Positions 1 through 27,541 of a stretch of DNA of 57,236 bases are shown here, piece after piece. A program made the position numbers and the translations under genes. The stretch is from positions 1 through 57,236 of the forward strand of contig CAZTTU010000004.1 in the NCBI GenBank assembly GCA_964616045.1. Reading direction: 5' to 3'. Below the pieces are notes generated by a model. That model was not told where the DNA came from and made no database searches. It worked only from the letters and a program-made list of their open reading frames with translations. Positions within the stretch are counted from its first letter, which is position 1; every line of letters begins with the position of its first letter. Origin of the DNA: an uncultured Verrucomicrobiota bacterium (GTDB lineage Bacteria; Verrucomicrobiota; Verrucomicrobiia; Limisphaerales; UBA1100).

Positions 1-1
1 C

Positions 2-3000
2 CTGGCGCTGAACGCGCAGGGACAGATTTATATTGGCGGCACCTTCACCACGGTGGACGGGCAGACCCATAACCGCATTGCCCGCCTCCAGAACGACCCG
101 GCCATTGACCGGGTGGAGGTCGATGACAACGGCACCTGGGTGCGCTGGAACCGGGATTGGACAACACCCGAGGCGCGGGAGGTGACCTTTGAAGAGGATG
201 TCAACGGCACCTGGACCCTCCTGGGATCAGGCAGCCGCATTGAGGGGGGCTGGGAGCTGACCGGGCTCTCACTGACGGGGAGCGGCAGGATCCGGGCCCG
301 CGCCCGGGTGCGAACCGGTAGTTATCACGGCTCCATGAGCCTGGTCGAAAACATTGCCGACTTCCCGACCATCCCCGCGCCACTCATTACCCGCCAGCCC
401 TCGGCCATCAATACCGTCACCGGGGACAACGTCACCTTCTCGGTGGACGCCAATGGCACGGCTCCCCTGACCTACCAGTGGCAGCGAAACAACATCGACA
501 TCGCCGGAGCCAACGGAAGCAGTTACACCGCCTATAACGTCGGGCTGGAGGACAACGCCACCATCTACCGGGTGATCGTCTCCAACCCGGGAGGAACCGC
601 AACCAGTTACGGCGCGTACATGGAGGTCGACCTGCCCACCAGCCTGGCCGGGTTCGTGCACGGCATGGTTGCCTTCTATCCCTTCAACGGGAATGCCAAT
701 GATGAAAGCGGCAACGGGCTGGATTTATCCATCTTCGGCGGCGCCACACTGACCAGTGACCGCAACGGCACCACCAACCGCGCCTATCACTTTGATGGCA
801 GCTCCGGCTATCTGAAACATATCGGCAGCGCTTCTCTCCCGGACATGAACAACACAACCGTCAGTGCCTGGGTCCACACCACCCAGGCCGGGCTGGGAAC
901 CGTTTTCCATGATGGCTGGAATGGTGGCCCCGGAAAAGACACCCTGTTGATGGTAACCGATTCCAAGGTGGGTGTCCGGGCAGACAAGAACGGGGCCGTG
1001 CTCGGTGACGGCGTACCGGCCAACCCGATTGATCCTGGCTTTGTGGACGTGGGCAATATCCGGGACAGCTGGAATCATGTCATCTGGAGAATGACCGGCG
1101 AAAAATCCGAAATCTACCTGAACGGCGAGCTGTCAGCCACCATCAATGAGGGAGGCAGTATGGTCGGCTCCCATGATCCCCTGATGATCGGGGCCTGGCT
1201 CAATATTTCAACCCCGACGCATCTTTTTGGCGGAAGCATTGACGAGGTGCGCATCTACGAACGCGCCCTGAGTCCGCTTGAGATTGCCCGATTGAGCCTT
1301 CTGGAAACACCACCACCAGCGCCTCCAACCATTATCACCCAGCCGCAAAGTGTCACCACCACCACCGGGGCCAACGTCACCTTCAGTGTCGATGCCAATG
1401 GAACGAAGCTCTCCTACCAGTGGCAGAAGAACGGGGTGAATATACCTGATGCCAACAGCTCCAGCTACAGCGTGTACAATGTGCAACCCGATGACAACGC
1501 GACCTTCCGGGTCAAGATCTACAATCGTGGCGGGGCAATAACCAGCAATGACGCAACCTTGGGTGTTCTCCTGCCTGACTCGCTCTCGGGATTCAACCAT
1601 GGCCTGGTTGCCTATTACCCCTTCACCGGCAACACGATTGATGCAAGTGGAAACGGAAATGACGCCGCGGTCGGCGGGGCCACCATCAGCGCGAGCCGTG
1701 ACGGAACCCTCAACAGCGCCTATGAATTCGACGGGTCAACCTCGAAGATAACCCGGACCAGCGCCATTCAGGGAGGCTTTAACAGCTTCGACGCCCTGAC
1801 CTACAGCGCCTGGATTTACGCCCAGCCCCGGAGCGGCAACAACCTGGTGACCATCCTGGATATCGGGCCGGAAACGGACAACCAACGAGCCGCCATGATG
1901 TTGAGCAAGGACAACAAGCTTCATTATGTGGGCCAAAACAACAACCTGGCTTTTGACCACGTGATCACCGAGCGATTGTGGATCCATGTGGTAATGGTCA
2001 AGTCAGGCAAGCAGGTCACCCTGTTTATCGATGGGGTATCCAAACAAACCGGGACACTTGGCGATGGCAACATCTTCACCGGCGGGCCCCTGACAATCGG
2101 CTGGAACGGTTCAAGCGGCGACCTGTTCAAGGGCACAATTGATGAGGTTCGGGTATACAATCGCGACTTGAAAGTTGATGAAGTCACCCGGTTACACCTG
2201 CTTGAGGCGCCCCCGATCATTATCACGCCGCCGTCGAGCCAGAACGTTACCGTCGGCCAAAACGTGACCCTGTCTTCACTGGGAGGCGGTCCCGGCCTGA
2301 AATATCAGTGGCTCTACAACGGCGTGGCCATCCCGGGAGCCACCAACTCCACGTTCACAATCAATAATGCACACAATGACCAGCCGTTTATCGGCAGCGC
2401 TGCCGGTCACTCCGAATTCATGAAGGGCAAGCTCGACGGCATGCGGGTCTACAACCGCACCTTGACTGGAGGGGAAGTTTTCCAGCTTTCGAGGGTCAAT
2501 TCCATCCTTGCCAAGGGCTACACCCCGGGCCAAAAGATCTTGGAATTTGCGGCGGGTGGTAAAGTGGGTTCATCACCGGCAATTGGTGCCGATGGCTGTA
2601 TTTACTTTGGGTCACAGGATAACAAGGTTTACGCTTATTACCCCAACGGATACAAGAAATGGGAGTTTGTAACGGGGGATAGCATTTATGAAAGCTCCCC
2701 GTCAATTGGCTCGGACGGAACCATCTACATCGGGTCCACGGACGACAAGCTTTATGCCATAAACCCCAATGGCTCCAAGAAATGGGAGTTCCCCACCGGA
2801 GGGGATGTAAGATCCACCCCGGCCATTGGAGCTGATGGCACCCTCTACATCGGGTCTGGCGACAAGAAGGTTTATGCCGTTAACCCGGATGGAACCAAGA
2901 AATGGGAGTTTGTGACCGGAGACTCTATTCAAGCGCCGGCATCAATCGGAGCCGATGGCACCATCTATATCGGATCGGCGGACAAAAAGATCTATGCCAT

Positions 3001-6000
3001 CAATCCCGACGGCTCCAAGAAATGGGAGTTCCTCACCGGAGGGGACATCGATCATTCCCCGGCAATAGGCAGTGATGGAACAATCTATGTTGGATCCGAT
3101 GACTACAAGATCTATGCCCTAAATCCCGATGGCACCAAGAAGTGGGACTTCCTGACGGAAAATGAAGTGGCCGCTTCCCCGGCGATCGGCCCTGATGGCA
3201 CAATCTATCTCACCTCTTGTTGGTTCTACGAAGACCGGAACATGGCAGACAAGGTCTATGCCTTACATGAAAATAACGGAACCAAGAAATGGGAATTCAC
3301 CGTGGGTGAGAAATTCGCTGAATCCTCTCCCGCTGTCGGGGCTGACGGCACCGTTTACGTTGGAGCAAGGAACAACAAGGTCTACGCCTTAAATGGCCAA
3401 ACCGGAGCCAAGATTTGGGAATTTGCCGCCGGAGATATAGTGGATTCTTCACCCGCAATCGGGGCCGATGGCACCATTTACATTGGATCTGATGACAATA
3501 AAGTCTACGCCCTCGCCAGTAGCAGCATGGGCTTGGCCAATAGCTCGTGGCCGAAATTCGGACGTAACAACCAGAATATCCACCGCCTTGACGGAGGTGG
3601 CAGTAGCTCAATCAACAACGGGCTCGTGGCCTATTATCCCTTTACCGGTCATGCCAATGATGAAAGTGGCTTTGAAAATAACGGCACGGTCAGTGGAGCC
3701 ACCCTCACCACCGATGCGAACGGTACTGCAGACAGCGCATATCAATTTGACGGGCTGGATGACAACATCAACATCACCAGCATTGGTTTCCCACTGGGTA
3801 ACGATGCCAGGACTGTTGCCGGTTGGTTCAAGATGGACGGTGCCGGTAGCGACCGGAACTCAACTCTCCTCTTTTACGGCCAGAAAGCCGCCGGCAAGGG
3901 ACTAGGCATCAGGCTCAACCGGATCGGGAGGCTTGAAGCCAGCGACTACGGGACGGTCTCCGTTGAGGCACCCACGGTGGTCAACGATACCAAGTGGCAC
4001 CATTTCGCCTTTATCGGCGATGGCAACAACACCGCCTACCTGTATGTGGATGGCGCTCTTTCTGCAACCAAGTCCGGCTGGAACAGCAACACCACACCCC
4101 CGGTTTCCGGCAACTACCAGATCGTGGTCACCAACCCCACCGGCAGCATCACGAGCGCTCCGGCGGCCCTGACCACTCCACCCACCATTGTCATGCATCC
4201 GCAGGACATGAACGCCTCAACCGGGGCAACCGTCATCCTCTCCTCCATGGCTAGGAGCACGGCGGCTCTGAGTTATCAGTGGCAGAAAAACGCCGTGGAC
4301 ATCAGCGGAGCCACTGCTGCCAATTACACGATCAACAATGCCAAGCTGGGTGATACGGACACCTACCGGGTTGTCATCAGCAACAGTGCAGGAAGCGTGA
4401 TCAGCAGCAGTGGACAGCTTAACATTTCCCTGCCGAAAAACCTGGATGAATTCTCCCATGGACTTCTCGCCTACTATCCGTTCACCGGAAACACCAATGA
4501 CGAAAGCGGCAATGAAAACAACGGCACCCTCAACGGGGCCTCCCCCGCCGCCGACAGCTATGGAACTCCTGGGCGGGCGTATTCCTTTGATGGAGATGAC
4601 CACATCCAGCTGCCCAACATTCTCCCTCAATTCTGGAACGGCACCCTGTCGGCCTGGATCCAAACGACCAACACGGTAACCGGGGCCAACGGCAAGGCCA
4701 TCATTACCAAACCCAAGAATGCCACGGCGCACGGGTTTGCGATGAAACACAACAATGAAGGCCAACCCATTGCGGACCTGGCTGGCGTGGCAATATCCCG
4801 TCAGGATGGTGTGGTAAATAATGGAAAATGGAACCACGTGGTGGCCGTGGCAGACGGCAATGCCACCAAGGTATACCTCAACGGCGTTCTGGTTGGAAAT
4901 GCAATTGATTTGGCCAATACAACCCATACGTCAAGCAATGAACTGATGTTTATCGGCAAAACCAAAGCCGACGACTCAAATGGATTTGTGGGCACCATTG
5001 ATGAAGTCCGTATATACGACCGGGTTCTCAGTCCTGAAGAAATCACCCAGCTGCATCTACTGGAGTCGCCGGACTCGGACGGGGATGGATTAACCGACGC
5101 CTACGAAAAGGGAGTGAGTCGGTACCAGATTATTCTAGCCAACTACACCTGGACCGAAGCCCGGGACAATGCCATCTCCCGGGGCGGACACTTGGGGACA
5201 ATTACCAGTGCAGCTGAGTGGACTGCCATTCAGGATGTGTTGGGTACTTCATTGCCGGGGGTTCGAATGTGGCTGGGTGGCTCTGATGCTACTGCTGAAG
5301 GCACCTGGACCTGGGTGACCGGCGAACCCTTCACCTATACACGATGGAATACCAACGAACCTGGTGCTCAAACCGCAGATGATGATTACGTAATCATTGG
5401 CTCTGGAGCCGAGGACCCCAACACAAAGAGCTGGGCAGACGTGCGCAATGCGGACAAGCAGGCTGCGTACCTACTGGAGGTTGGTTACTACACTGATCCG
5501 TACAATGCCGACAGCGATGGAGACGGAGTTAGTGACGGGGATGAGGTCACCAATGGAACCAATCCAAACCTGGTGGACAATGCCCCGGTGATCAGCATTC
5601 ACCCGACGGACATCAACGCCACGACCGGGGCAACGCTCACCTTTGGAGTCATTGCAAAGGGAGCCTTTAGTTACCAATGGCAAAGGAACGGGGTGGACAT
5701 CGCTGATGCCAACGCTTCAACATATGTGATTACCAATGCCCAAGGAGAAGACAATGCTACTTACCGTGCAGTTGCCATTAACGCCGCAGGCGCAGCCACA
5801 AGCAATGGAGCAATCCTGACCGTTTCCCTCCCCGGTGATCTGGGGGGCTTCAATCACGGATTGGCCGCTTACTATCCCTTCAACGGCAACGCAAATGACC
5901 TCAGCGGCAATAATCATCACGGATCAGTGACAAGTGCCAGCCTGACGACCGACCGGAACGGCACCGCTTCAAGGGCCTATTCTTTCAACGGCGCAGACAG

Positions 6001-9000
6001 CATGATTCAGGTTGCCGAGGCTGCCTCCTTCGAGGCAAACAGCCATTCAATCCTCCTGTGGATGAAGCCGAGGAACCAAACCGCACCCGAACACATCATT
6101 TCAAAGGATGAAGGTCAGGGTGCCAACAGACAATGGTTGCTGGAAAGCCGACTCGACAGGACTATTCTTGGCATCGTCTGGACCGATGAAGGGGAGAAAC
6201 AAAGTGTCTCCTCGGCAAAATTGAACCCCAACACCTGGAACCATGTTGCGCAGGTGTGGAACGGGAACACGCTTGATATTTATATCAACGGGGTAAAAGC
6301 CAGCAGTGTTGCCGCTTCAGGCAACCTGGCGACCGGCGCAGAGCCCGTCCGGATGGGCACCGTGTCCATCAACAATCGCCCCTATGGAGGAATGCTGGAC
6401 GATGTGCGAATATATAACCGTGCCCTGAGCGCGAGTGAAATTTTAAAGCTGCACGACCTGGAGAAACTTGGCGCCACGGTGGACTATTCAATCGCCTTCA
6501 CGGAACACCCAGCTGATTGCAACGCAACCACTGGCAGCGATATCACCCTCACTGCGAATGCCACCGCCTTGAGTCCTGTTAGTTATCAATGGCAGAAGGA
6601 CGGAGTAGATCTAAACGGCTCCAGCTCCGCCAGCCTTGTCATCACAAATGTCAAGGCAGACGACTCCGGAACATACCGTGTCATCGCCAGCAACCAGTCC
6701 GGATCAAAGGCCAGCAACCCGGCTGCCGTTACCATTGGCGATGCACCAACCATTACCGTCCACCCAGCTGATACGATTGGTGCCATTGACAGCAATGCCT
6801 CCTTCACCTTTGAGGCGAATGGAACCGGACCACTCGCCTATCAATGGCAAAAAGAAGGAGTAGATCTGAACGGTTCCAATGCTTCCAACCTTTTGATCTC
6901 AAACCTGTCAACGGAAGATAACGGAACCTATCGGGTTGTCGTAACCAATCCATTTGGGATGGCTACCAGTAATGGAGCCGGTCTCACCATCGGAGCTTCC
7001 CCCGTTTTCACCAAGCAACCAGTGGATACAAATGCAACTACCGGAGGCAACATTACGCTGTCTTCAACAGCAATTGGCACCGGGGCCATTTCCTATCAAT
7101 GGCAAAAGAACGGTGTGGACCTGAATGGTTCAAATTCACCCAGCCTGTCATTCACAAATATTTCCGCCAGTGATTCGGGGGTGTATCAAGTGGTTGCCAA
7201 CAACCTGTTCGGATCAAAAACCAGCAACCCGATCACCTTGGGGGCTTTTGACCCCCCAACCATCAACACCCAACCGATACACAAGAATGTTACCCTCGGG
7301 GGAAATATTACCCTCGGGGTGGATGCAAATGGATCAGGTCTGACCTACCAGTGGCAACGCAACGGAGTGGATATTAACGGTGCCACCAACTCTACTTATA
7401 CGATCACCAATGCCCACATAGACAGCCCGAGCATTGGCAGTATTGCCGGTGCGGCCAGTTTTTGGAAAGGATCACTGGACAGTTTAACGGTTTACGACCG
7501 CGAGCTGAATGCAACCGAAATCCTCCAATTGGCCGGCAGATCTCATCTCAATGTAATTACCGTGGGAGGCAAGCCCGGCCAAACTGGAAATGTAAATGGC
7601 ACACCAGGAAACTCGCTCTTTTCCGATCCGTACAGCATTGCAATCGACAACCAAGGCAACGGATACGTAAGCGAATATTTGAATCATTGCATCAGGAAAA
7701 TCTCCCCGCCCGATCATAATGCCACCACCTTTTCCACAGGACTGACTAATCCAACAGGCATTTGTATCGCTCCTGATGGCAATCTTTATGTCACCAAATT
7801 CTACGAGGGCAATGTGACACGCATTACTCCGGCAGGAGCCAAGACCGTTGTCCAATCAGGATTCAATCGACCTTGTGCCGTAGCCGTTGATGGAACCGGC
7901 ACAATGTGGGTGGCCAACACATATTCTTCCCAGATAATACGGATCGGCCAGGATCAAGTACGCCATACGTGGTGGAATATACAGGCCAACCATATTGCGC
8001 TCGGGCCCAATGGAGATCTGTATGTCGCCAATCAGGCGGACCAAACTATCCGTAGAATTGGAGCAAATGATCCGGTTAGTCCAATCGGGCAGGTAGTAGT
8101 TGTGGCTGGCAATCCCTTGCAAAAAGGCTACCGGGATGGTCTGGCAAACCAGTCTCTCTTGGAGGATATAAGCGGCATTGCCGTAAGTCCAACAGGAAAC
8201 GTGTATGTGGCTGACAATGGGATGATTCGACTCATCTCCTCCGAAGGAATTGTTTCAACGATCGCCGGAAAATCCGGAGAATTCGGGTTTATTGATGGCC
8301 AGGTCAAGAAATCCCGGTTCCAGAACATTGGCGGTCTGGCCTTGGATCAAAACGGGAACTTGTGGCTGGCACAGCGAGATAAGTCTGTTCGCCTGATAAC
8401 GAACGTGGAGCCGACCAAGGGTGTCGTGGCTTATTATCCCTTCAATGGCAATGCTAATGATGAAAGCGGAAATAACCTCAACGGAATCGTGCAGGGTGCC
8501 ACTCTCGTTGAGGACCGCTTTGGTAATCCCAACAGAGCCTATCTATTCGATGGCAGCAACGACCATATCGAGGTTAATGCAACAGTGGTGGGAACGAATG
8601 ACTTTGCCATTTCATTTTGGACTAAGGTTGACATCTCTGAGACCAAGGGTGCACTGATAAGTCAAGGTGGATATGCGCATCAAAAAGGATTTCTGGTTGA
8701 TTTTTGGGATGGCCTTGGTGCAGGAGACCGATATCGACTGGAAACTTCAGATGGCGGCAGCACACCACTGGTAAATTTTGCAGATATTAATGGCGGCAAT
8801 AACGGGCGAGCCGAACGCGGTAAATGGCAGCATGTTGCCGTTTCGGTTTATCGCTCCAAGACAGGAAACAGAAGTGGGCTGTACGTAGACGGCCAACTGG
8901 TAGCCTCCGGGAATATTCCTGACATTAACCTTTCCCGCTCCCCATTGAGAATCGGGGCCAATGTGGTTGGTGAGAATGCTCATTTTAACGGAGCAATTGA

Positions 9001-12000
9001 CGATGTCCGCATTTACAACCGGGCATTAACAAACAGCGAAATCACCGCCCTGGCAGAGGTAAGCCTGGCCAGAGGATTGGTGGCACATTATCCGTTTAAT
9101 GGAAACGCAAATGACGAGAGTGCCCAAGACCACAACGGAACTCCAATCGGAGCGACACTTGTCCCCGATCGGAGCGGGGTACTTGACCGAACTTATTCAT
9201 ATGATGGAACAGACGACGCCATCAACATCACCGCCGATGCCTTCCCTTATGGAAACAGTAGCTTGTCCGTTACAGGCTGGATTAAAACCGATGGGAATGC
9301 CTCCGATGGGAACACGACCATTCTTTTCTACGGTGGAAAAACACATAATGAGGGATTTGTGTTGGGGCTCAACAAGCTCGGCCGACTGGAGGCAAGCGCC
9401 ATGGGAGCCAATACCTTTGATGCCAATGCCTCAATAGACGATGGAACATGGCATCACGTAGCCTTCACCAGCGACGGAAATAATACCGCTTTGCTGTATA
9501 TTGATGGTGAGCAAGCCGGCACCACAAATGGATGGAACATCAACACCTCCGCTCGTGCTTGGGGAACCTATCAAGTGACCATTTCCAACCCTTCAGGTGC
9601 CAGTGTCGTCAGTGATGGAGCAATTGTGTCCACGGCCCCAACGATTACCCGTCATCCCCAGGGTTGCAACGCGACAACAGGCCAATCAGCTCTCTTTGAG
9701 GTAAGTGCTGTTGGCTCACCTCCATTGCTATTCCAGTGGCAAAAAAATGGAGTCAGTATTGAAGGCGCAAATGGACCGACCTACACGCTGTCAAATATAC
9801 AGGCTGAAGACAATGGAACTTACAATGTGGTTGTGAGCAATAATAGCGGCGGAGCCGCCAGCATTGGTGCAGATTTGATTGTTTCTTTACCATCAACCCT
9901 TGCGGAATTCAATATAGGCTTGGTTGCTTACTATCCCTTTAACGGCAATGCCAATGATGAGAGCAGCTACGACAACAACGGCTCTATCGATGGCGCCACG
10001 TTGACACACGATCGGAACGGCACCCCTGGATCCGCTTACAGCTTTGACGGGATCAATGACAAGATCAACGTGAACTTTGTTAACGCCCCGCTGGGCAATT
10101 CACCTCGGACTCTTTCATTGTGGCTCAAAGCGAATCCCTTGGAGGCTTCCGACAAACATGCCGTCAACTGGGGCACAATGGCGCCCTCCGAAGCCTTTGG
10201 CATAACCAAACTTAACTCTAACCATAATTTGAGCTTTTATGGCCATGGAGCAAACCTAGATAGCAACGCCTCACTCGACACAAAATGGCATCACGTGGTC
10301 GTGACCTATGATTCAACTTTTATCAAGGTGTACATTGACGGAACCTTAAGGCGGAGTGGGGCCGTCGATCTCAATACGACTGACACCACGTTATTGATGG
10401 GTGCAGCGCTGAATAGCAGCAATTACTGGAAAGGCAAACTAGACGAAATTCGAATCTACGATCGTTCCCTTAGTGCCACTGAGTTGTCACAGCTAAACCT
10501 TCTGGAAACCCCGCCCCCACCAGTCATTACCGTACATCCTGTAGATGTAAATGCCACCACGGGGACTAATATTACAATGAGTGTTACAGCAACTGGAGGT
10601 GCTACCTATCAATGGCAAAGAAATGGTGCAGACATCCTCGGGGCCAACTCAAGCAGTCTCCTGATCCCAAATGTTCAGGGCGATGATAATGCCACTTTCC
10701 GCGTAATCGTGAGCAACTCAAGCGGAAATGTGATGAGCAATGAATCAACCCTTGCTGTGTCCTTGCCTGCAAACCTCTCAGAATTTAACAACGGTCTACT
10801 GGCCTACTATCCTTTCAACAGGAATGCAGATGATGCCACCGGAAATGGCCATCACGGACTTGTCCAAGGCCCCGTACTTGAAACGGACCGTAATGGAACC
10901 CTGCAAGATGCATATAGATTTGACGGTGTTGATGACAATATCGAAGTCTTAGACCACGCAGACTTTGATTTTGGAAGCGGCGACCTCTCACTTTCGTTTT
11001 GGCTAAAATTTAATGGAGCGCAACAGCAAAGCCAAATTCTCGGCCAATCAAATGGCTTGGGAGAAAATAATAAGTGGTATGTTGATTATCTTCAAATATA
11101 TGGCGGCTATAAAATGGCTCTCCACTTCAATACAGACGCCAACGCATCAATCTGGCTGGCTCCTTTGGCTGCAAATTATGATACGGCTTGGCATTTGGTG
11201 AACTTTGTGAAGAGGGGAACAAACTATCTTGCTTATCTAGACGGAAAGGAACTGTCCTTCAGTATCGGACCTGCCGCTATCCCTAACACCAATGCAAAAC
11301 TTAAGCTGGGCACCGGAGAAGGCTCCCATTTCCTCAATGGCGACCTGGATGAAGTCCGCATTTATGGTCGCGCCCTAAGCACAGCTGAAATCGACTTGTT
11401 GTACCAACTTGAAAAACCGGGGCCACCAAGCATTCGCACACAACCAACAGATGCCAATGCCACGACAGGCGAAAACATAACCTTTAGCGCGGAAGCTCTT
11501 GGCCTCAACCCCATCACCTACCAATGGCAAAAAAATGGGATCAATATAACAGGCGCCAACGACTCCAGTTATACAATCGAAAATGTACAGGCTGATGATG
11601 ATGGTTCCTATCGACTGATCGTAACCAATCCCGCAGGCAGTGCCAACAGCAGCCCTGCAACACTCAAGGTAACCCTGCCTGACAAGCTATCTGGTTTTGG
11701 AAATGGCTTGCTCGCATATTATCCGTTTAACGGGAACGCGAATGATGCTAGTGGCAATGGCCACCATGGCTCCGTTTCCGGGGCTACACTGGCTGCCGAT
11801 CAGAACGGAACAATCGCACAAGCCTATCAATTTGATGGCAGCGACCACATCCAGCTACCAAGCATATTGACAAATTTTGAGAGGGTTACTTTCTCGGCCT
11901 GGATCAAAACAAACACAAAACACGCGCCGAATCCAGGGGCCGTCATTGCCAAACCAAAAACATCCGGAACCAATTCTCCAGGTGTAAGTCTTCGTATTCA

Positions 12001-15000
12001 TGGAAGCCCGTCAAACTTGGCACAAATGGCCCTGGATAATGGAAATGCCTATATATCCGGGCAAACAGGAGCCAGCCTCACCGACAATCAATGGCACCAT
12101 ATTGCAGGCACCGCTGATGGCAACATGACGCGGATTTATGTGGATGGGGTCTTGGCAGACGAAGATGCTTACAATGTCGTCGGGGCAACAAGTACACAGA
12201 CCATGTCCATTGGACGTGATAACGGTGCCGGTGGCGTGGGGTACCATTATTTCACCGGGGTTATTGATAATGTCCGCATTTATGATAGGGCCTTAAGTTC
12301 CGAAGAGTTAGGCAAACTAAAGAGTCTCGAAACGCCTCCGCTACCGATTATCAGCCAACAACCTCAAGATCAACATTTGGCCATAGGTGGAAACACCACA
12401 CTACATGTCACCGCCTACGGAGCTACTCATTACCAATGGCAGAAAAATGGAGCTGACATCATTGACGCAAACTCATCAACGCTTTCGGTAAATAATGCCA
12501 CGTCTGACGATAATGGTAGTTATAGCGTTATCGTTGGCAATGGTGCCGGAAGTATATTGAGCGAGCCAGCAACAGTAACAACCGGCTATGCTCCAAGCAT
12601 CATACTACACCCCTCAGACACTAACGCCTCCTACGGAGATAGAGTAGACTTTGTTGCAGATGCGAATGGCTCGCCGCCATTGACTTATCAATGGCAGAAA
12701 AATAACTTCAACATTGGAGGCCCGGCTGCCACCAAATCCACCTATACCATCAATAGTCTCCAGATAGGGGATAATGGAACCTATCGGGTCATCGCCACCA
12801 ATCCATTTGGTACAAGCACCAGTAATATTGCTGTTCTAAACACCGGATCGAAACCAACCTTCTCTTTGCAGCCGATTGATGTGAATGCCACGTATGGCAG
12901 CAACATCACGTTAAACACAACAGCTGATGGCCCTGGGCCAATAGCATATCAATGGCAGAAAAATGGAGCTGACATTAATGGTAGCAACACTCAAAGCCAT
13001 ACCATCACTGGAGCCGCCGTCAATGACGCAGGTATATATCGCGCAACAGCCACCAATCTCTATGGAGTTGCAACAAGCCGCTCCAGCACAATTAATATCG
13101 GCTATGCTCCAAGTATTATATCACACCCAACTGATAGCAACGCCACCGCTGGATCGAACTTGACCCTATCAGTCGACGTGAATGGGACCGGCCCATACAG
13201 TTATCAATGGCAAAAAGGTGATGTTAATATTCCTGACGGCACCAACCGGACCTATAGTTTAGCAAACATTCAAGCTGCCGATGCGGGAGAATACCGAGTT
13301 ATTGTAAATAGCCCATTTGGGGTGAAGACGAGCAATCGTGCTTTGCTCAATGTAGGTAATGCCCCGACAATCACATACCACCCTGAGGATGTTTATGCAG
13401 TTAGAGGGGAAGATGTAACCCTCTATTCCTCTTCGTCCGGCACCGGGCCACTTATTTATCAATGGGAAAAGAATGGAACTCTCATTCCCGGAGCAACCAA
13501 GTCATTCTATAAAATCATCAACACACAACAAATTGATGCTGATTCTTATGATGTCACCATTTCGAATTCATTTGGATCAGCCAAAAGTAATGCCGCTGTA
13601 GTCAATGTGGGAGACAAACCAGCCATTTTGACAAATCCTCTGGATGTATATACCACCCCGGGGAAATCGATCTCATTATCGACACTCGGATCGGGCTCCG
13701 AACCCTTGTCATATCAATGGCAGAAAGGCGGCAAGCCCATACCGGGAGCTAATAGCCCCACATACACAATAAATAATGCCTTGTCAGGTCACGCGGATAC
13801 CTATCGCGTGGTTCTAAGTAATAATTACGGAACGACTTTCAGTACAGCTGCCTTAGTCAATGTTGGTCACGCACCTCACTTCATCGCCCATCCATTTGAT
13901 ATCAACGCGACTGTGGGCACTACCATCACCTTCTCCTCCGACTTAAATGGCACCAACCCTATAAGTTACCAATGGCAGAGGAATGGGCAGAATATTGTTG
14001 AAGCGACGAATGGAAACCTCTCCATACCCAATCTTCCTTTGGATTATAACGGCACAATCACAACCATTACCGGCCAGGATGTCGGAGGATATAATGGAGA
14101 CAACATTCCAGCTTCCGACTCATACTTAAATGACCCGCATGCTCTCTTCAGTGATACCAACGGAAATATTTTTGTCGCAGATTCAAAAAACAATCGGATC
14201 CGAAGAATATCGCACGACGGGACTATTACCACATCTGCCGGCAGAACAGGGCATGGGTATTCGGGCGATGGCGGACCAGCGACTAGTGCCCGATTAAATA
14301 AACCACGCGGTTTTGCCATCGACCGCTCAGGCAATATATTTATCGCCGACACAGAAAATCATTTGATCCGAAAAGTGGATGCAAATGGATCCATAACCAC
14401 CGTAGCCGGCTCCGGAATTCCCGGCTTCTCTGGAGATGGTGGTTCGGCATTATTGGCAAACCTTAAATTCCCGAATGCTATTGATATAGATGATCTAGGA
14501 CATATGTACATCGCAGATTCCGATAATCACAGAATTAGGAAAGTGGACATCAACGGCACCATTACAACCATTGCAGGATCAGGAATTGTCGGATTTTCCG
14601 GAGATGGAGGGCTGGCTAAATACTCACAACTTGATAGCCCGAAGGATATCAAGATAGATACAGCTGGCAGAATTTTCATTGCTGATAGTGGCAACCATAG
14701 AGTTCGAATTATCGATTTGAATGGATCTATTGCAACCATTGCAGGCAGTGGAGCTGTTGGCACCGGTAATGGCAATATGTCCGGAGATGGGGGATTGGCC
14801 ACAATCGCAAGACTTGACACCCCACTCGGATTAACTGTGGACGGCCAAGGAAATCTATACGTTGCCGACTCTAACAACCACCGTATCCGCCGAGTTGATA
14901 TTAATGGGACAATAACAACAATCGCCGGCAGCAGCACGGCAGGGGATGGCAATGGCGACTTTGCGGGAGATGGCGGACTCTCTGGTAACGCACGATTGAA

Positions 15001-18000
15001 CCAACCAACAAGTGTAACTGTGGATGGTAAGGGCCGATTGTATATTGCTGACGGAGGCAATAATCGAATCAGGCTGGTTGCCCCTGATACTGGCACCTAT
15101 CGTGTCTTAGCTAATAACGCATATGGCAACGCCACCAGCAATGATTCAAAACTGGTTGTAGGTTATGCCCCGACTCAGATCTTTCAAACACCAGACATCA
15201 ACTCCACACTTGGGAGCACCATCACTCTCAAATCACATTTCTTGGGATCCCATCCCCTGAATTATCAATGGCAAAAGAATGGCCAAGATATCCCAGGGGC
15301 TGCCTCGCCCAGCTTAACCATAAGCGATCTGAATCAAACAGATGATGGCAATTACAGAGTAATTGTTTCCAATCCCTATGACAGCCTCACAGGGAATGAT
15401 GCTCTTGTAACCACCCTGCTTCCACCAACGATCGCGCAACAGCCCGAAAATTTATTTTTGATAGCCGGGTCTACCGCCTCTTTCACAGTCGAAGCAAATG
15501 GTACCGCCCCGCTTGCCTACCAATGGATGAAGAATGGCACCAATATTGTTGGAGCCACAGAAAAGGTTCTCCAACTTTCTGCGGTTGCTGGAGGGGATGC
15601 TGGTCATTATTCAGTTCAAATCAACAGCCCATATGGCAGTGCAACAAGTGATTCTGCGAGCCTGAGCGTGGGGATGCCTCCGACTCTTACGTCAGAGCCC
15701 ATGGATAAAAATGCTTCGGTGGGCGAAAGTGTTTCCTTTGATTCAAACGCGACAGGTAGCACACCAATGTCCTATCAATGGCAATACAAGGGGGCCAACA
15801 TTACGGGGGCAGTTTCGCCAACCTACAATATTCCGATGGTGAAAGGTGATCACAACGGCACTTATCGAGTGGTCGTCAAAAATGATTTCGGCACAGTAAT
15901 CAGTCGGGCCGCAAAATTAACCCCAATTTTCCCGCCATTCATCACCTCGCAGCCATCTGATTATAACGCAACCATCGGAACAAACATCAATTTCACTGTA
16001 GTTGCCGACAGCATTACACCCCTCACATACCAATGGCAGAAAGATGGGGAAGACATTATCGACGCTAATTCATCAACCCATGTAATTAATAACGCCCAAG
16101 TTGAGTCCAACGGCACTTACAGCGTGATTGTCTCCAATTCCGCCGGAAGCGTCACCAGCAGAAACGGAACTTTAAACATTGTCTATCATCCTTCAATTGA
16201 GGCCCACCCCAAGGATATAAACGCTTCTGAAGGAAGTAATATCACTTTCATTGTCGATGCGAATGGCAGCCCTACTCTTACTTACCAATGGCAAAAGGAC
16301 GGAGTTGATATTCCGAATGCAAACAACACAAGCTATCACTTGACCAACACACAGAGTGACGCCAACGGAACGTACCGGGTCGTTGTCACTAACCCCTTTG
16401 GCTCTACCACTTCCGACGATGCGAAGCTGGCTGTCGGAAAAGCTCCAGTTTTCACTTCGCATCCATCCACTATTGACAATGCAGCGGTAGGCAGCGCCGT
16501 GTCCTTCTCAGTTGTCGCAACCGGATCCGGAATAATTTCTTATCAATGGCAAAAGGATAATCAAAACCTTGGTGCTGCAAATGCATCTACTTATGTAATT
16601 TCAAATAGCTCCGTTAACAGTGGAGGTGAATACCGAGCCATCGCCTCCAACCCATTTGGATCGACCATCAGTCAAACAGCACAATTAACAGTAGGCTATA
16701 AACCAGAGATCTTTTCCTCACCTGTGGACACCAATGCTACAGAAGGGGGCGATGTAACATTTACGGTAGATTCAAATGGCAGTGGGTTGATCTCTTACCA
16801 ATGGCAAAAGGATAGTATCGATATTCCCGGGGCAACTTTCAAGACGCTATCTCTACAGAACATCAACACCTCCGATTCAGGATCCTACCGAGTAGTCGCG
16901 AATAATAAGTTCGGTTCTACCAATAGTGATGAAGCATCGTTAATCATCCTAGGAGCGCCAACAATTACATCGCACCCCCAAAGCGGCAGCACTCCCCTGG
17001 GGGCCAATGTCACTCTCTCAGTGGAAGCATCCGGCACCCCACCCCTTTCATACCAGTGGGTTAAAAACGATGTAGTCATAAACGGAGCCACAAATGCAGA
17101 TTATACTATCAACAACATCGAGGCAAACGATGAGGGATCATATCATGTTATTGTAACCAACCCTTACGGGTCTGAATCAAGTAGTGAGGCAGTCGTGTTG
17201 GTTGGCTTGGGTCCAATCATCACCGTTCAACCAATTGATCAAAACAGCACAGGAAATAAGAATATCTATTTTAGGATCGGGGCTAATGGAACCAGGCCCA
17301 TGACCTTCCAATGGAAAAAAGATGGGGAGAATGTCGATGGACTAGACGTCTTCACGATCTCCGAATATATGTCATACTACAGTACGGGAAGCCGAAAATG
17401 GTATAAGGATTCGAACGGCAGTTGGTGTTATTTGACAGCAGACGGCTCGCTTTATCGACGGGGTGCCGCAAGCCGTATCGACTCAATTTTCTGGGCCAAT
17501 CCTGCAGAGTTGGTGGGGAGCAATTTCCTGATGATCAAGAGAGCCGGCGCCGCTTCGGCCGGCTCATTCCGGTGCATAGTAAGCAATAAGTTCGGCTCGG
17601 AAAATAGTCAGGAGGCGGAATTGTTGCTGGTTTCCCCGCCGGAAATTACAGCTCACCCCGAAAACACCACTCTGTCCATTGGTGCAAACGCCACATTGAG
17701 TGTTGAGGCAAGCGGCGACGGTCTATCTTATCAATGGACAAGGAATGGCATCAATATTGTTGGAGCCAGCAATGATTCTTACACCTTCAATAATGCCCAG
17801 GCGAACAATGCTGGCTCTTATGTCTGTGTCGTGACTAATCCTCATGGTTCAGTTTCCAGCCATGAAGCCAAGGTGACTGTGATGGCGCCCCCTGTGATCA
17901 TCACCCACCCAGTCAGTCAATCGGTTAAGCCCTCAGCCAATGTTACTTTCTTTATTGAAGCCGAAAGCGCTTCATCGCTGAGTTATCAATGGAAGAAGAA

Positions 18001-19736: not shown

Positions 19737-20813
19737 TTATCCGCTCAGCACGAGATAAAGCGTCACCGCGGCGATAACGAGCATGACGGCCAGAGTGGCC
19801 AAGACGATATAGAACTCAACGGAGAACCGGCGCCGAGATAACGGGGCGGTTTGAGCGCCGGTGGGCCGACCCGTTCGAGTGGGAGGTGGCGTAATGAACA
19901 GTGGCTGAACGACGGCGCGGGCATCAATGATGTGCGCGATGGCACGGATGGATTCGGGCCGAACCCCCGGATCTTTATCGAGACAATTCATGATCATTTG
20001 CGCAATGTTAGGTGGCACATCGCTTTCAATATTTTTTTCACGCAACCGCGCTTCAATGGGTTGCGGCGGAACAACCTGGAGCTGATGTGAAATATCTCCG
20101 GTGTGAAAAGGCGGCACGCCACACAGTAGTTCGTAGAGTGTGGCACCCAAGGCATATATATCATCGCTTACTTGCGGAGGCTCTCCTTCCATTTGTTGCG
20201 GGCTCATGAAGGTCATTGTGCCGCGGTTATCGCGCAGCCCAAGCAATTCTGTGTAGCCGTCGTTGAGCATAGCAGAGATTCCCAGGTCGGCGAGTTTCAC
20301 GCGGCCCTTGGCGTCGATCATGATATTGGCAGGCTTTAAATCACGATGAATGAGTTGCTCAGTATGGGCGTGATCCAGCGCGCTACAGAGTTGCAGAACC
20401 ACAGGCTTGAGATCAGCCCATGAGAATATGTCGTTCACGCGATCAAATCGCAATGTGTGCAGGCTTGCTCCTTCCACATATTCCATCACTAGGAATGGCG
20501 CTTCGTGTTGGGATTCGAAAATATCGTAGAGTTTCACGATGTTCTGGTGAGTGAGGCGGTGATTTTGGACGGCCTCCTTTCGCAGTTCTTGCTGCATATG
20601 TGGATCCTGCGCCAGTTGTTGCTGCAGAAATTTGAGCGCCACGGTGCCGCCAAGGCGTTCATCGCGCGCCAGCCAAATCACGCAACTGCCCCCGGCGGCC
20701 AGCATCCACAAAAGTGTGTAACGGCCTGCACCTACCAGTTGATCGGAAATCAATTCTGAGGGCGCAGGAACCCCCGCCTTTGGCCCAGGCGTTTGTGGAG
20801 TATTGGAGTTCAC
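19737..20813 (-). CDS. Hanks-type Ser/Thr protein kinase with a C-terminal membrane anchor
   Basis: VALKFL (catalytic Lys), HRDLKPANIMI catalytic loop, KLADLGIS (DFG-like), TMTFMSPQQMEG (APE-like). The extreme C-terminus is hydrophobic (FYIVLATLAVMLVIAAVTLYLVL), with no visible extracytoplasmic domain. Confidence 0.85.
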   Translation of the reverse strand: MNSNTPQTPGPKAGVPAPSELISDQLVGAGRYTLLWMLAAGGSCVIWLARDERLGGTVALKFLQQQLAQDPHMQQELRKEAVQNHRLTHQNIVKLYDIFESQHEAPFLVMEYVEGASLHTLRFDRVNDIFSWADLKPVVLQLCSALDHAHTEQLIHRDLKPANIMIDAKGRVKLADLGISAMLNDGYTELLGLRDNRGTMTFMSPQQMEGEPPQVSDDIYALGATLYELLCGVPPFHTGDISHQLQVVPPQPIEARLREKNIESDVPPNIAQMIMNCLDKDPGVRPESIRAIAHIIDARAVVQPLFITPPPTRTGRPTGAQTAPLSRRRFSVEFYIVLATLAVMLVIAAVTLYLVLSG

Positions 20814-20879
20814 GGAAAAGGTTTTATTTTAAGGATTGCCTATTTGCCAATGTTTTTGCGAAATAAACGGCTCCGTTCA

Positions 20880-21185
20880 ATGCAGATCAGCTACCAATAT
20901 CAAGGCAAATGGCACCTCAAATCGCTTTCCGAGGCGATAGTGGTGGTCGGCCGACCCAATGCCCAGGAGGAGATTGGCATTGACCTGAGCCCGGACACCA
21001 CTGTGAGCCGAATACACGCCAAGATTTGGCTGGCGAACGGTCTGTGTTGGATAGAAGACTTGGGCAGCCGCTACGGGACCACGATCAATGGTACCCGCAT
21101 CACAGCTCGTCAACAGCTTCAAGAGGGCGATTCCATCGGCATTGGAGAAACCACTCTCCGGGTGGACGCCGATAACGGGCAATAA
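20880..21185 (+). CDS. small stand-alone FHA-domain protein
   Basis: VVVGRPNAQ...DTTVSRIHAKIWL...IEDLGSRYGTTINGTRI matches the G-R...S..H...NG FHA signature. I chose the ATG at 20880. The track start at 20793 would overlap the divergent kinase start at 20813. Confidence 0.75.
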   Translation: MQISYQYQGKWHLKSLSEAIVVVGRPNAQEEIGIDLSPDTTVSRIHAKIWLANGLCWIEDLGSRYGTTINGTRITARQQLQEGDSIGIGETTLRVDADNGQ

Positions 21186-21327
21186 GTACCCAGCCTCCCT
21201 TTATCATATTCACCAAATAAACAAGATTATCTATAATTAAGCCATTTTTAGCCTATATGTTTGGCTATAAATATCTTTTTTTTGATTAAATGCGATTTTT
21301 AATCCATTTTCATGGATTATTCACAGT

Positions 21328-21343
21328 TGGCATGCGCCCTGCT
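21328..21343 (+). promoter_or_regulatory. sigma54-type (-24/-12) promoter candidate upstream of fliW-csrA-flagellin
   Basis: TGGCAT-GCGCC-CTGCT against consensus TGGCAC-N5-TTGCW. GG and GC are at the canonical spacing. It lies 27 nt upstream of the fliW ATG, preceded by an AT-rich 140-nt region. Confidence 0.45.
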
Positions 21344-21369
21344 TTGTTCATCGGTGAACAGTAGTCGCT

Positions 21370-21810
21370 ATGTTGACGATTGAAAATAAACGTACAGAAA
21401 CCAGCCCCCCCGCGGAAGCCAAAGCCGTGGAAACAGGGACTGAGTTGTACTTCCCTTCTGGTTTGCTGGGGTTCGAGATGAACAAGCAGTTTGAATTGAT
21501 CACCGATCCCGAGCTATCCCCTTACCAGTGGCTAAAGGGCACGGATGCCGACCAAAGCTTTCTCGTCATCCCCCCCAGCTACGTGGTGGAAAATTACAGC
21601 ATCGATTTGGCCGATGAAGATGTAGCCCTGCTGGGGCTAGAAAACCCCGATGATGCCGTGGTGCTTAATATCGCCACCTATCATGCGGATGAAACCGTGA
21701 CCGTAAACCTGAAGGGCCCACTCGTGTACAACACAACCACGAAAGCCGCCCGCCAGATCGTGCCACGTAACGCAGCCGACCTCTCACTCGCCCACCCGAT
21801 GGGCAATTGA
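21370..21810 (+). CDS. fliW: flagellar assembly factor FliW
   Basis: 146 aa. LYFPSGLLGFEMNKQFELI...PYQWLKGTD...SFLVIPP...NLKGPLVYN is typical FliW. It sits immediately upstream of csrA and flagellin. Confidence 0.85.
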   Translation: MLTIENKRTETSPPAEAKAVETGTELYFPSGLLGFEMNKQFELITDPELSPYQWLKGTDADQSFLVIPPSYVVENYSIDLADEDVALLGLENPDDAVVLNIATYHADETVTVNLKGPLVYNTTTKAARQIVPRNAADLSLAHPMGN

Positions 21811-21843
21811 TGAGGCCTAAAGCCGTGAAAGGAAGAATATCCC

Positions 21844-22062
21844 ATGCTGGTTCTATCAAGAAAAACGAACGAGAGCATTGTCATCGATGGGAATGTGACG
21901 GTGAGCGTGTTGCGAGTGGACAATGATAATGTCCGGATCGGAATTGATGCCCCGTTGGAAATCCCAGTGTTACGCAAGGAAATTTACGAGGAAATCAAGA
22001 CAAACAATGAAGTGGCCGCTGGATCGGCCAAACGAAAAGTAAGGCAACTGGTAAACAATTAA
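21844..22062 (+). CDS. csrA: carbon storage regulator CsrA (flagellar FliW-partner type)
   Basis: 72 aa. MLVLSRKTNESIVIDGNVTVSVLRVDNDNVRIGIDAPLEIPVLRKEIYEEI. Confidence 0.95.
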   Translation: MLVLSRKTNESIVIDGNVTVSVLRVDNDNVRIGIDAPLEIPVLRKEIYEEIKTNNEVAAGSAKRKVRQLVNN

Positions 22063-22117
22063 GGTTGAAGAAGAATTTTAACCCAAAACTAACAACAACC
22101 AATAGAAGGAACGAACC

Positions 22118-23242
22118 ATGGTTATTAATACCAATGTTGAGGCCCAAAGGACGGCCAACAACCTAAATGTAAGCCAGACCAATCTGGCCAAATCACTGAG
22201 CCGACTCAGTTCGGGCTCACGCATTGTTAACCCGTCTGACGACGCCGCCGGCTTGGCGGTGAGCTCACGATTGAGGGCGCAGATTAAGCGTCTTGATTCC
22301 GCGCTCTCCAATGTCGTCAACGCCGTCTCGTTTACCCAAACCCAGGACGGTTTTATGAAGACGGTGGATAAAGCCTTTCGTCGTATGGGCGAGCTGGCGA
22401 TGCTTGCACGGGATGAAACCAAATCCACCCAGGATCGCGCGCTTTATGACCAGGAGTTTCAGCAACTCAAGGACTATATCGTTGACACTACGGGGAAGGA
22501 GTTTAACTCCGTGCCTCTCTTTGATGGTTCAGACATTGCGGTGACCATTGATTCCGAAGGCGATACCTTTGAGATGGCCGGGATCGATATGGCCCACGCG
22601 AAATATACAGATGCGATGCTCAAGTCAGATCAACTTTTGACAGGAGTGTCCGTCGCTTTAGCGAACGACACATTCACCACACAGACAGCTCATGGGTACT
22701 CCACAGGTGAAATAATCCAGATTGATGGTGCTAACATACCGGCACCCACAGTTGGGTCTGATGACGACACTCAGACAGAATATTATGTGACTGTCGTGAG
22801 CCCAACCACCTTCACAATCCATACTGCAACTCCTCCGGTTGCCGGCAATAAGGTGGCTATTACTGAGGATATGACTGATATTAGTATCCTCGGTCCTTCC
22901 GCTGATACTCCCACTACCCTGGGCACCATTACACGAGGTGTGCATATCAAGACAGCCCTTCAGGCCGATGATGCGCTCACCAAGGTGAAGACAGCTATTT
23001 CTCAGGTGGCGCAAGACCGTGCGGCGCTGGGTGCTGTTCAATCCCGTTTGAACTTCACCAACGAGCAGCTCTCGGTGACGAAGGAGAACTTGAGTTCTGC
23101 CATTAGCCGTATTGCTGATGTGGATGTGGCCGAAGAGGCTACTCAATACGCCCGCTACCAGATTCTGGTACAATCGGGCACACAAATGCTTACACAAGCC
23201 AACCAACTGCCGAATGCGGCACTGCAACTCCTCCGCGGATAA
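22118..23242 (+). CDS. fliC: flagellin
   Basis: N-terminal MVINTNVEAQRTANNLNVSQTNLAKSLSRLSSGSRIVNPSDDAAGLAVS and C-terminal ILVQSGTQMLTQANQLPNAALQLLRG conserved segments. The variable centre is Thr/Ser-rich. RBS AAGGA lies 7-11 nt upstream. Confidence 0.95.
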   Translation: MVINTNVEAQRTANNLNVSQTNLAKSLSRLSSGSRIVNPSDDAAGLAVSSRLRAQIKRLDSALSNVVNAVSFTQTQDGFMKTVDKAFRRMGELAMLARDETKSTQDRALYDQEFQQLKDYIVDTTGKEFNSVPLFDGSDIAVTIDSEGDTFEMAGIDMAHAKYTDAMLKSDQLLTGVSVALANDTFTTQTAHGYSTGEIIQIDGANIPAPTVGSDDDTQTEYYVTVVSPTTFTIHTATPPVAGNKVAITEDMTDISILGPSADTPTTLGTITRGVHIKTALQADDALTKVKTAISQVAQDRAALGAVQSRLNFTNEQLSVTKENLSSAISRIADVDVAEEATQYARYQILVQSGTQMLTQANQLPNAALQLLRG

Positions 23243-23270
23243 ACAACGGGGGAAACCTGAAGACACCGCC

Positions 23271-24605: not shown

Positions 24606-24627
24606 TCGAATAAAGGAAACAACACAA

Positions 24628-27538: not shown

Positions 27539-27541
27539 ACT

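What the first reader, a model, noticed from the sequence alone, without database searches (positions are those of the whole stretch)
2208..4175. Reciprocally split domains: Ig(N-half) - LamG(C-part) - 8-blade propeller - LamG(N-part) - Ig(C-half)
An Ig module runs normally through strand E (…YQWLYNGVAIPGATNSTFTINNAHNDQ, junction ~2380-2390). It then switches directly into the last three strands of a LamG module (PFIGSAAGHSEFMKGKLDGMRVYNRTLTGGEVFQL). After the PQQ-like propeller, a LamG module starts normally (LVAYYPFTGHANDESG…AYLYVDGALSATKSGWN) but stops exactly where the missing strands would begin. It then switches (~4095-4115) into the missing Ig strands F-G (SGNYQIVVTNPTGSITS). The break points in both folds are precisely complementary. 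The simplest reading is an Ig domain whose E-F loop hosts a circularly permuted LamG domain, whose new termini are in turn bridged by a propeller. That would be a three-level nested architecture.
Basis: seen in the sequence. Interest (0 to 1): 0.65.

Follow-up and report, generated by a model that had tools for sequence, protein, structure and literature searches.

The report
Nested Ig, permuted LamG, propeller module
Inside a 6,539-residue marine bacterial surface-type protein, a small Ig domain is split by a circularly permuted LamG lectin-like domain, which is itself split by an eight-bladed propeller; this three-level nest is real, conserved and reused with other guest domains, and it is an unusual variant of known domain-insertion architectures rather than a new kind of biology.

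Summary
The region lies in one ORF (window 53-19672, 6,539 aa).

Profiles built from the protein's own intact modules give these matches:
- Ig positions 1-57 at aa 721-776.
- LamG positions 163-204 at aa 773-814.
- A PQQ-type 8-blade propeller at about aa 826-1156.
- LamG positions 1-159 at aa 1190-1344.
- Ig positions 53-82 at aa 1346-1375.

The break points are complementary in both folds.

The same frame occurs a second time in this protein (aa 2402-3193). There it holds an NHL propeller plus a whole LamG. It also occurs in independent marine metagenome and Verrucomicrobiota MAG proteins. Two of these (P0263, P0392) are complete nests with a LamG as guest.

MAFFT on its own splits all 27 intact Ig modules across the 570-residue insert.

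AlphaFold2 of aa 715-1380 gives mean pLDDT 85.4. The two Ig parts score 86-96 and the propeller 88-98. I could not read coordinates or PAE, and a truncation control discriminated only weakly. Physical reassembly is therefore strongly inferred, not shown.

Topologically this is a natural counterpart of the engineered "megabody". I rate it a new variant of a known kind, of moderate interest.

The parts
53..19672 (+). Giant ORF (6,539 aa) of Ig, LamG, C-type lectin, TSP3 and propeller modules that contains the nest
2213..2380 (+). Ig N-part, strands A-E (aa 721-776), outer host, first half
   Evidence: Own Ig HMM positions 1-57/83, E 7e-17. Pfam Ig_3 1-65/78. AF2 pLDDT 86-95.
2381..2494 (+). LamG C-part (aa 777-814): last two strands plus C-terminal helix of a circularly permuted LamG
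   Evidence: Own LamG HMM positions 163-204/206, E 8.5e-8. The motif F.KG.LD..RVY.R.L is conserved in 7 homologues.
2528..3520 (+). Eight-bladed PQQ-like beta-propeller (aa ~826-1156), innermost guest, joining the native C- and N-termini of the LamG
   Evidence: Pfam PQQ_2 and Beta-prop_ACSF4. AF2 pLDDT 88-98. Foldseek Cake8 6tjg TM 0.97, then YxaL and BamB.
3521..3619 (+). Low-confidence linker (aa ~1157-1189) between the propeller and the LamG N-part
   Evidence: AF2 pLDDT 29-54
3620..4084 (+). LamG N-part (aa 1190-1344), from strand 1 up to the break loop
   Evidence: Own LamG HMM positions 1-159/206, E 2e-36. Pfam Laminin_G_3 2-112/151. LG/LNS fold matches.
4088..4177 (+). Ig C-part, strands F-G (aa 1346-1375), outer host, second half
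   Evidence: Own Ig HMM positions 53-82/83, E 2.5e-6. The C-halves of 27/27 intact Ig modules align here. AF2 pLDDT 95-96.
7256..9631 (+). Second copy of the same frame (aa 2402-3193): Ig N-part, LamG C-part, NHL propeller, whole LamG, LamG N-part, Ig C-part
   Evidence: The frames are 50% identical with no gap at the junctions.

Best explanation
The segment encodes one compact three-level module.
- An I-set-like Ig domain is interrupted in its E-F turn, inside the D-x-G-x-Y motif.
- The interrupting unit is a LamG (Laminin_G_3, concanavalin-like jelly roll) domain entered at an internal loop. Its last two strands and helix come first, and its first ~155 residues come last. It is therefore circularly permuted relative to the ten intact LamG modules of the same protein.
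- The native C- and N-termini of that LamG are adjacent in LG/LNS folds. They are joined not by a short linker but by a whole 8-bladed propeller, whose own termini are also adjacent.

Shown:
- The sequence topology and the complementarity of the break points.
- The recurrence and conservation of the frame, with different guests: PQQ propeller, NHL propeller plus LamG, or LamG alone.
- Its presence in independent assemblies and in RNA.

Inferred:
- The parts reassemble into one Ig and one LamG.
- Folding must proceed from the inside out: propeller, then LamG, then Ig.
- The functional point is to hang ligand-binding modules (lectin-like LamG, propeller) rigidly, by two-point attachment, on the side of an Ig rod without breaking the rod. 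This would be in a giant extracellular adhesin- or glycan-binding-type protein of a flagellated marine bacterium. The closest named relatives of the frame are from Verrucomicrobiota MAGs.
- The simplest origin of two exactly complementary breaks is one event. A circular or tandem LamG(-guest) unit, opened at one point, recombined into one point of an Ig module. The frame was later duplicated and its guest exchanged.
For: - Profile coordinates of the four fragments and of the second instance, with Pfam agreeing.
- The frames of instances 1 and 2 are 50% identical and gap-free at the junctions.
- The IgN->LamC junction is found in P0121, P0123, P0132, P0149, P0388, P0263 and P0392. The LamN->IgC junction is found in P0040, P0088, P0122, P0136, P0260, P0267, P0278 and P0392, and in P0263 from the profile stretch reaching the Ig C-part.
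- Complete nests with a LamG guest: P0263 and P0392.
- In P0260, from a Verrucomicrobiota MAG, a propeller end is followed by LamN-IgC.
- Core motifs of the short fragments are retained in all homologues: G.Y.V.. .N..GS and F.KG.LD..RVY.R.L...EI..L.
- MAFFT splits 27 of 27 intact Ig modules into 56 aa plus 25 aa across the insert.
- AF2 of aa 715-1380 gives mean pLDDT 85.4 and pTM 0.66. By part: IgN 86-95, IgC 95-96, LamC 71-85, LamN mostly 71-92 (59-73 over its first ~30 residues).
- Without LamC, the first LamG strand drops from 69/59 to 44/44. Without IgN, the G-strand block of IgC drops from 95 to 82.
- Contigs of two seawater runs span both junctions with 0 differences. A vent-metagenome contig and a metatranscriptome contig span junction 2 with variants.
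- Feasibility of the topology: engineered megabodies are built as Ig strand A, scaffold C-part, linker, scaffold N-part, Ig strands B-G, and they fold (bioRxiv 10.1101/812230).
Against: - No coordinates, contact map or PAE could be read, so the pairing of Ig halves and of LamG parts is not directly seen.
- In the truncation control the Ig F-G hairpin kept pLDDT 91/82 without its N-half. High pLDDT alone therefore does not prove pairing.
- MSA depth was only about 5 for the LamG C-part and about 2 for the propeller.
- Function, localisation and organism are inferred. I noticed no signal peptide or sorting signal when reading the ORF ends, and ran no prediction.
- The scans of 159 genome and metagenome loci found no further junctions, but they used generic LamG motifs.
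Confidence: 0.8

Rival explanations
1. Decayed remnants. Two independent internal deletions in an ordinary Ig-LamG-propeller-LamG-Ig array left non-folding stubs, and the complementarity is fortuitous.
For: The protein is a long array of near-repeats in which deletions are expected. The junction blocks have lower pLDDT, 56 and 73.
Against: The same two break points recur in a paralogous copy at 50% identity and in more than ten independent proteins. The fold-specific core motifs are preserved in the short stubs. All 9 split modules in the protein have properly nested complements. The stubs are predicted as confident strands.
Confidence: 0.05
2. Assembly artefact. A metagenome assembler mis-joined repeats of a repetitive gene and so created chimeric junctions.
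For: The gene is highly repetitive. Many spurious 'joints' appear inside the propeller repeats when contigs are laid on it.
Against: The junctions join non-homologous sequence (an Ig loop to a LamG loop), which is not where repeat-driven mis-assembly occurs. Identical 8.3-kb contigs from two runs span both junctions. Divergent contigs from a vent metagenome and a metatranscriptome span junction 2. Divergent homologues from other projects carry the same junctions.
Confidence: 0.02
3. The fragments fold, but not as an intramolecular nest. The halves might be complemented in trans (domain swapping between copies or between molecules), or the Ig N-half and LamG C-part might form a hybrid sandwich.
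For: The protein carries two copies of the frame whose halves are 50% identical. The F-G hairpin stayed fairly confident even without its own N-half. No contact map was available.
Against: The strict nesting order of every pair favours the closest partner. So do adjacent-termini guests (propeller, LamG) that bring the halves together. So do single-copy nests in P0263 and P0392.
Confidence: 0.1

Closest known systems
Megabodies: engineered nanobody or monobody with a circularly permuted scaffold (HopQ, YgjK) grafted into a beta-turn (bioRxiv 10.1101/812230)
   Same: The chain topology is identical: Ig-fold strand(s), then the C-terminal part of the partner, then a connection of the partner's native C- and N-termini, then the N-terminal part of the partner, then the remaining Ig strands. 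There is a two-point rigid attachment, and the insert is much larger than the Ig host.
   Different: Megabodies are man-made. They use the A-B turn, not the E-F turn. They use a Gly-Ser linker or a direct fusion instead of a whole propeller or LamG as the bridge. Their scaffolds are unrelated to LamG.
Nested domain insertions (A1-B1-C-B2-A2), for example integrin beta subunits (betaI in hybrid in PSI; from my own knowledge) and the cases surveyed in Protein Sci 2026, PMC13114784
   Same: Three or more levels of domain-in-domain. In integrins the host of the middle level is an Ig-like sandwich. Co-occurrence of insertion and circular permutation is noted for RNAP insertional domains.
   Different: Here the middle domain is not interrupted in a loop by the guest. 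It is permuted, so the order is A1-B2-C-B1-A2. The insert is about 7 times larger than its 82-residue host, whereas inserts are smaller than hosts in 77% of surveyed events (median 115 vs 199 residues).
Natural circular permutations of the concanavalin-like jelly roll: concanavalin A versus other legume lectins, and Fibrobacter succinogenes 1,3-1,4-beta-glucanase versus the Bacillus enzymes (from my own knowledge)
   Same: The same fold class tolerates relocation of its termini because the native N- and C-terminal strands are neighbours.
   Different: Those are free-standing permuted domains. Here the permuted domain is inserted in another domain and its old termini are bridged by a third domain.
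Ordinary bacterial giant Ig/LamG repeat proteins (Laminin_G_3 + Ig_3 arrays of Verrucomicrobiota, Bacteroidota and others)
   Same: The same module families and the same beads-on-a-string context. 45,037 library proteins match the LamG/Ig profile at E<=0.001.
   Different: In those proteins the modules are contiguous. None of 159 fetched loci had the split junctions. Only 4 of the 147 top representatives that were scanned had them.

Membership tests
Immunoglobulin-like domain (Pfam Ig_3 / I-set) | Full seven-strand sandwich profile match, including the Trp of strand C and the D-x-G-x-Y-x-V/C of strands E-F | tested here: met
   The match is met only by adding two separated pieces: profile 1-57 at aa 721-776 (contains YQW) and profile 53-82 at aa 1346-1375 (contains GNYQIVV).
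Laminin_G_3 (PF13385, concanavalin A-like lectin/glucanase superfamily) | Full-length profile match from the YYPF strand to the IDEVRIYNRALS strand and helix | tested here: met
   Met in permuted order: positions 163-204 at aa 773-814 and positions 1-159 at aa 1190-1344. The model of the N-part matches LG/LNS domains only weakly (E ~6e-4, TM 0.35-0.47).
PQQ-like / BamB-like eight-bladed beta-propeller | Eight blade repeats closing into a ring | tested here: met
   Pfam PQQ_2 E 2e-43. Eight repeats in the sequence. The AF2 model superposes on 8-blade Cake8 with TM 0.97 and rmsd 1.5 A, and on YxaL and BamB.
Circularly permuted domain | C-terminal segment of the fold encoded before the N-terminal segment, with a single complementary break point, and both segments forming one domain | tested here: inconclusive
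   Order and complementarity are met (159|163). Formation of one domain is inferred from pLDDT and from the drop of the first strand's confidence when the C-part is removed. No contacts could be read.
Nested domain insertion (domain within domain within domain) | Host sequence continues on both sides of the insert at each level, and the host refolds | tested here: inconclusive
   The sequence criterion is met at both levels, twice in this protein, and in P0263 and P0392. Refolding is not directly observable with these tools.
Megabody-like graft | Ig-fold host, circularly permuted partner, two peptide connections at one beta-turn | tested here: met
   The chain order is identical to the published construct description. 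This is a resemblance of topology only; the present protein is natural and unrelated in sequence.

The most novel reading that the evidence does not exclude
The split Ig plus permuted LamG is a naturally evolved, reusable docking frame. It would be an ancient unit that accepts arbitrary guest domains with adjacent termini (PQQ propeller, NHL propeller, LamG, combinations) between LamG's native termini. It would display them rigidly from an Ig stalk, making it a natural counterpart of the megabody design that could be copied for protein engineering. Its two complementary breaks would be the scar of a single recombination of a circular or tandem LamG unit into an Ig module.
Probability: 0.35. 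Interest if true: 0.65.

Novelty: new variant of a known kind. Interest (0 to 1): 0.5.

Why it matters
This is a clear natural case in which three things coincide in one module: domain insertion, circular permutation, and a second level of nesting. An 82-residue host carries a 570-700-residue insert, which runs against the usual rule that inserts are smaller than hosts.

The case bears on four questions:
- How far discontinuous domains can be pushed.
- How such proteins fold. The Ig N-half must wait for about 570 downstream residues.
- How domain annotation pipelines mis-read such proteins. Pfam reports only truncated Ig and LamG hits here.
- How rigid two-point grafts could be designed from natural parts.

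It does not reveal a new biochemical function. The biological role of the giant protein remains inferred.

Tried and rejected
1. **Chimeric MSA for AlphaFold.** I built permuted intact modules plus trimmed propellers.
2. **MAFFT on mixed fragments.** It stacked unrelated pieces on top of each other. A natural-row set that aligns correctly was found by trial and was used as A3. The cost was almost no depth over the propeller.
3. **Structure search with the full model.** It was swamped by the propeller and said nothing about the Ig or LamG.
4. **Truncation control.** This was AF2 of aa 1186-1380 alone. I expected the Ig F-G hairpin to collapse. It fell only from 96/95 to 91/82, so pLDDT is not a decisive read-out. 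A first version of its alignment was discarded because LamG tails spilled onto the Ig part.
5. **Scans for other loci.** The genome contigs and metagenome-contig scans chose generic LamG motifs. None of the 159 loci had the junctions.
6. **Naming the organism.** The look-up of the window's FlhA gave only an unnamed assembly of a seawater run.
7. **Considered and rejected.** The fragments as chance similarity was rejected because of the E-values and the 27/27 alignment. Mis-assembly was rejected on the evidence.
Full report
**What is there**

The finding sits inside a single ORF, window 53..19672 on the + strand, 6,539 aa. Amino acid n starts at nucleotide 53+3(n-1).

Pfam on aa 671-1424 reports the following:
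- An Ig_3 match that stops at profile position 65 of 78.
- A Laminin_G_3 match whose best stretch stops at position 112 of 151.
- A strong PQQ_2 / Beta-prop_ACSF4 propeller.

To locate the breaks precisely I built profile HMMs from the protein's own 7 intact LamG and 27 intact Ig modules and searched the protein with them.

| Module part | Profile positions | Protein aa |
|---|---|---|
| Ig N-part | 1-57 | 721-776 |
| LamG C-part | 163-204 | 773-814 |
| Propeller | n/a | ~826-1156 |
| LamG N-part | 1-159 | 1190-1344 |
| Ig C-part | 53-82 | 1346-1375 |

- The two LamG pieces abut at profile positions 159|163.
- The two Ig pieces abut inside the E-F turn. The N-part ends with ...TINNAHNDQ and the C-part starts with SGNYQIVV, so the break falls within the D-x-G-x-Y motif.

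**The pattern is not unique in the protein**

The same search shows a second copy of the frame at aa 2402-3193:
- Ig 1-57, then LamG 147/163-202.
- An NHL-type propeller, then a whole LamG (aa 2790-3002).
- LamG 1-157, then Ig 53-81.

With the guests removed, the two frames align at 50% identity with no gap at either junction.

A third Ig (aa 4608-5036) carries an NHL propeller directly between its two parts. Four more Ig modules (from aa 5721) carry an insert of about 60 residues after profile position 43-46. In total 7 of 7 split Ig modules and 2 of 2 split LamG modules have their complement downstream, and the pairs are always properly nested. This protein evidently uses Ig loops as insertion sites as a habit.

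**Conservation elsewhere**

Protein searches were followed by scans with my HMMs. They found the same junctions in independent marine metagenome fragments and MAG proteins:
- The Ig N-part to LamG C-part junction is in P0121, P0123, P0132, P0149, P0388, P0263 and P0392.
- The LamG N-part to Ig C-part junction is in P0040, P0088, P0122, P0136, P0260, P0267, P0278 and P0392. For P0263 it is inferred from the profile stretch 1-170 at aa 432-599; the HMM scan did not call its Ig C-part.
- P0040 and P0260 are labelled Verrucomicrobiota MAGs.

An alignment of six right-hand junctions has essentially no indel across the junction; one sequence has one extra residue.

The short fragments keep the fold-specific core motifs in every homologue:
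- G.Y.V...N..GS for Ig strands F-G.
- F.KG.LD..RVY.R.L...EI..L for the LamG C-part.

P0263 (773 aa) and P0392 (706 aa, 43% identical to P0263) are complete nests in which the guest is a whole LamG rather than a propeller. In P0260 a propeller end precedes the LamG N-part, as in the window.

The frame is thus an established unit that carries different guests. It is also uncommon:
- None of 159 loci fetched with generic LamG motifs had the junctions.
- Only 4 of the 147 top library representatives that were scanned had them.

**Not an artefact**

Contigs of 8.3 kb from two seawater runs cover window 2100-4300 with no difference. A hydrothermal-vent metagenome contig (3348-4167, 13 differences) and a metatranscriptome contig (3880-4151, 11 differences) span the second junction. 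The junction therefore exists in related strains and is transcribed. The many 'joints' listed inside 2630-3460 are cross-matches between propeller blades.

**Structure prediction**

I therefore assembled an alignment of natural rows only (A3).
- In it MAFFT, unprompted, split each of the 27 intact Ig modules. It placed 54-56 residues on aa 721-776 and 23-26 residues on the Ig C-part region (within aa 1346-1380), across a 570-residue gap. That is an independent confirmation of the Ig complementarity.
- AlphaFold2 on aa 715-1380 gave mean pLDDT 85.4 and pTM 0.66.

| Region of the model | pLDDT |
|---|---|
| Ig N-part | 86-95 |
| First junction | 56 |
| LamG C-part | 71-85 |
| Propeller | 88-98 |
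| Linker after the propeller | 29-54 |
| LamG N-part | 59-92 |
| Second junction | 73 |
| Ig F-G hairpin | 95-96 |

- The DSSP strands match the expected A, B, C, (C'), E | F, G pattern.
- The propeller superposes on the designed 8-blade Cake8 (TM 0.97, rmsd 1.5 A), and on YxaL and BamB.

Limits:
- The tools return no coordinates or PAE, so I could not read the contacts between the halves.
- As a control I predicted aa 1186-1380 alone with the same rows for that region (A6).
- The first LamG strand fell from 69/59 to 44/44 without the LamG C-part, as expected if they pair.
- The Ig hairpin fell only from 96/95 to 91/82, so pLDDT is not decisive.
- The truncated model matches LG/LNS domains of laminin, neurexin and SHBG weakly.

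**How it most likely works**

- *Established knowledge of the folds.* LG/LNS domains have neighbouring N- and C-terminal strands. Propellers close with neighbouring termini. An Ig E-F turn and a LamG inter-strand loop each present two chain ends side by side. Each level of the nest therefore connects two adjacent points, which makes the topology feasible.
- *Engineering precedent.* Megabodies have exactly this chain order: Ig strand A, scaffold C-part, linker joining the native termini, scaffold N-part, Ig strands B-G. They fold and crystallise.
- *Inference on folding.* Folding runs from the inside out. The result is a rigid, two-point lateral display of lectin-like and propeller modules on an Ig stalk.
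- *Inference on origin.* Two exactly complementary breaks are what a single recombination between a circular (or tandemly repeated) LamG unit and an Ig module would produce. The shared junctions of all copies then point to one old event, followed by duplication and guest exchange.

**Context**

- The rest of the protein has about 36 Ig, 10 LamG, a C-type lectin, TSP3 repeats and two NHL propellers.
- The neighbouring genes are a Ser/Thr kinase, flagellin, a block of sugar-modification genes and flagellar export genes.
- The source is a seawater metagenome.

**Comparison and verdict**

- Nested insertions are known, up to six levels, and inserted domains can be circularly permuted (PMC13114784).
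- Circular permutation of the concanavalin-like fold is classical (from my own knowledge).
- What is unusual here is the combination A1-B2-C-B1-A2, an 82-residue host carrying 570-700 residues, and the reuse of the frame with several guests. [quoted passage not shown]
- I rate it a new variant of a known kind. My confidence is about 0.8 that the parts reassemble as proposed. Interest is moderate (0.5).

Noticed in passing
window 7256-9631 (aa 2402-3193): A second copy of the same split Ig / permuted LamG frame. Here it encloses an NHL-type propeller plus a complete LamG. Its frame is 50% identical to the first with gap-free junctions.
   Followed up: yes
window 13874-15160 (aa 4608-5036): An Ig module split by a six-repeat NHL propeller inserted directly, with no LamG layer. 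The Ig profile matches 1-71 before the propeller and 56-82 after it.
   Followed up: partly
window 17213-19663 (aa 5721-5857, 5947-6085, 6173-6311, 6399-6537): Four Ig modules alternate with intact ones. Each carries an insert of about 60 residues after profile position 43-46, with a conserved motif (..RKW.KD..G.WCY....G.LY..). The one copy scanned (aa 5721-5861) matched no Pfam family in the insert.
   Followed up: partly
window 5100-5600 (aa ~1690-1840): A C-type lectin domain and bacterial TSP3 (calcium-binding) repeats are embedded in the Ig/LamG array. This is consistent with an extracellular carbohydrate-binding role.
   Followed up: no
window 1-60: The giant ORF starts at a GTG only 52 bases from the window edge. 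On reading, its first residues do not look like a signal peptide, and no C-terminal sorting signal is evident at 19672; no prediction was run. The true start may lie upstream or in another frame.
   Followed up: no
window 19737-36019: Next to the giant gene lie a Ser/Thr protein kinase (minus strand), a flagellin gene and a run of sugar-nucleotide and modification genes: epimerase, nucleotidyl transferase, GHMP kinase, DegT aminotransferase, B12-radical SAM enzymes and a methyltransferase. The run looks like a flagellin-glycosylation island.
   Followed up: no
window 36140-43480: A 2,446-aa protein combines many TPR repeats with glycosyltransferase family 1 and family 2 domains.
   Followed up: no
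window 48236-56928 (minus strand): A flagellar export and motor cluster: FlhF-like SRP54 GTPase, FlhA (FHIPEP), FlhB and FliM. The host is therefore a flagellated bacterium.
   Followed up: no
window 3880-4151: A metatranscriptome contig from a hydrothermal-vent study covers the LamG-to-Ig junction with 11 differences. A related strain therefore transcribes this gene.
   Followed up: partly
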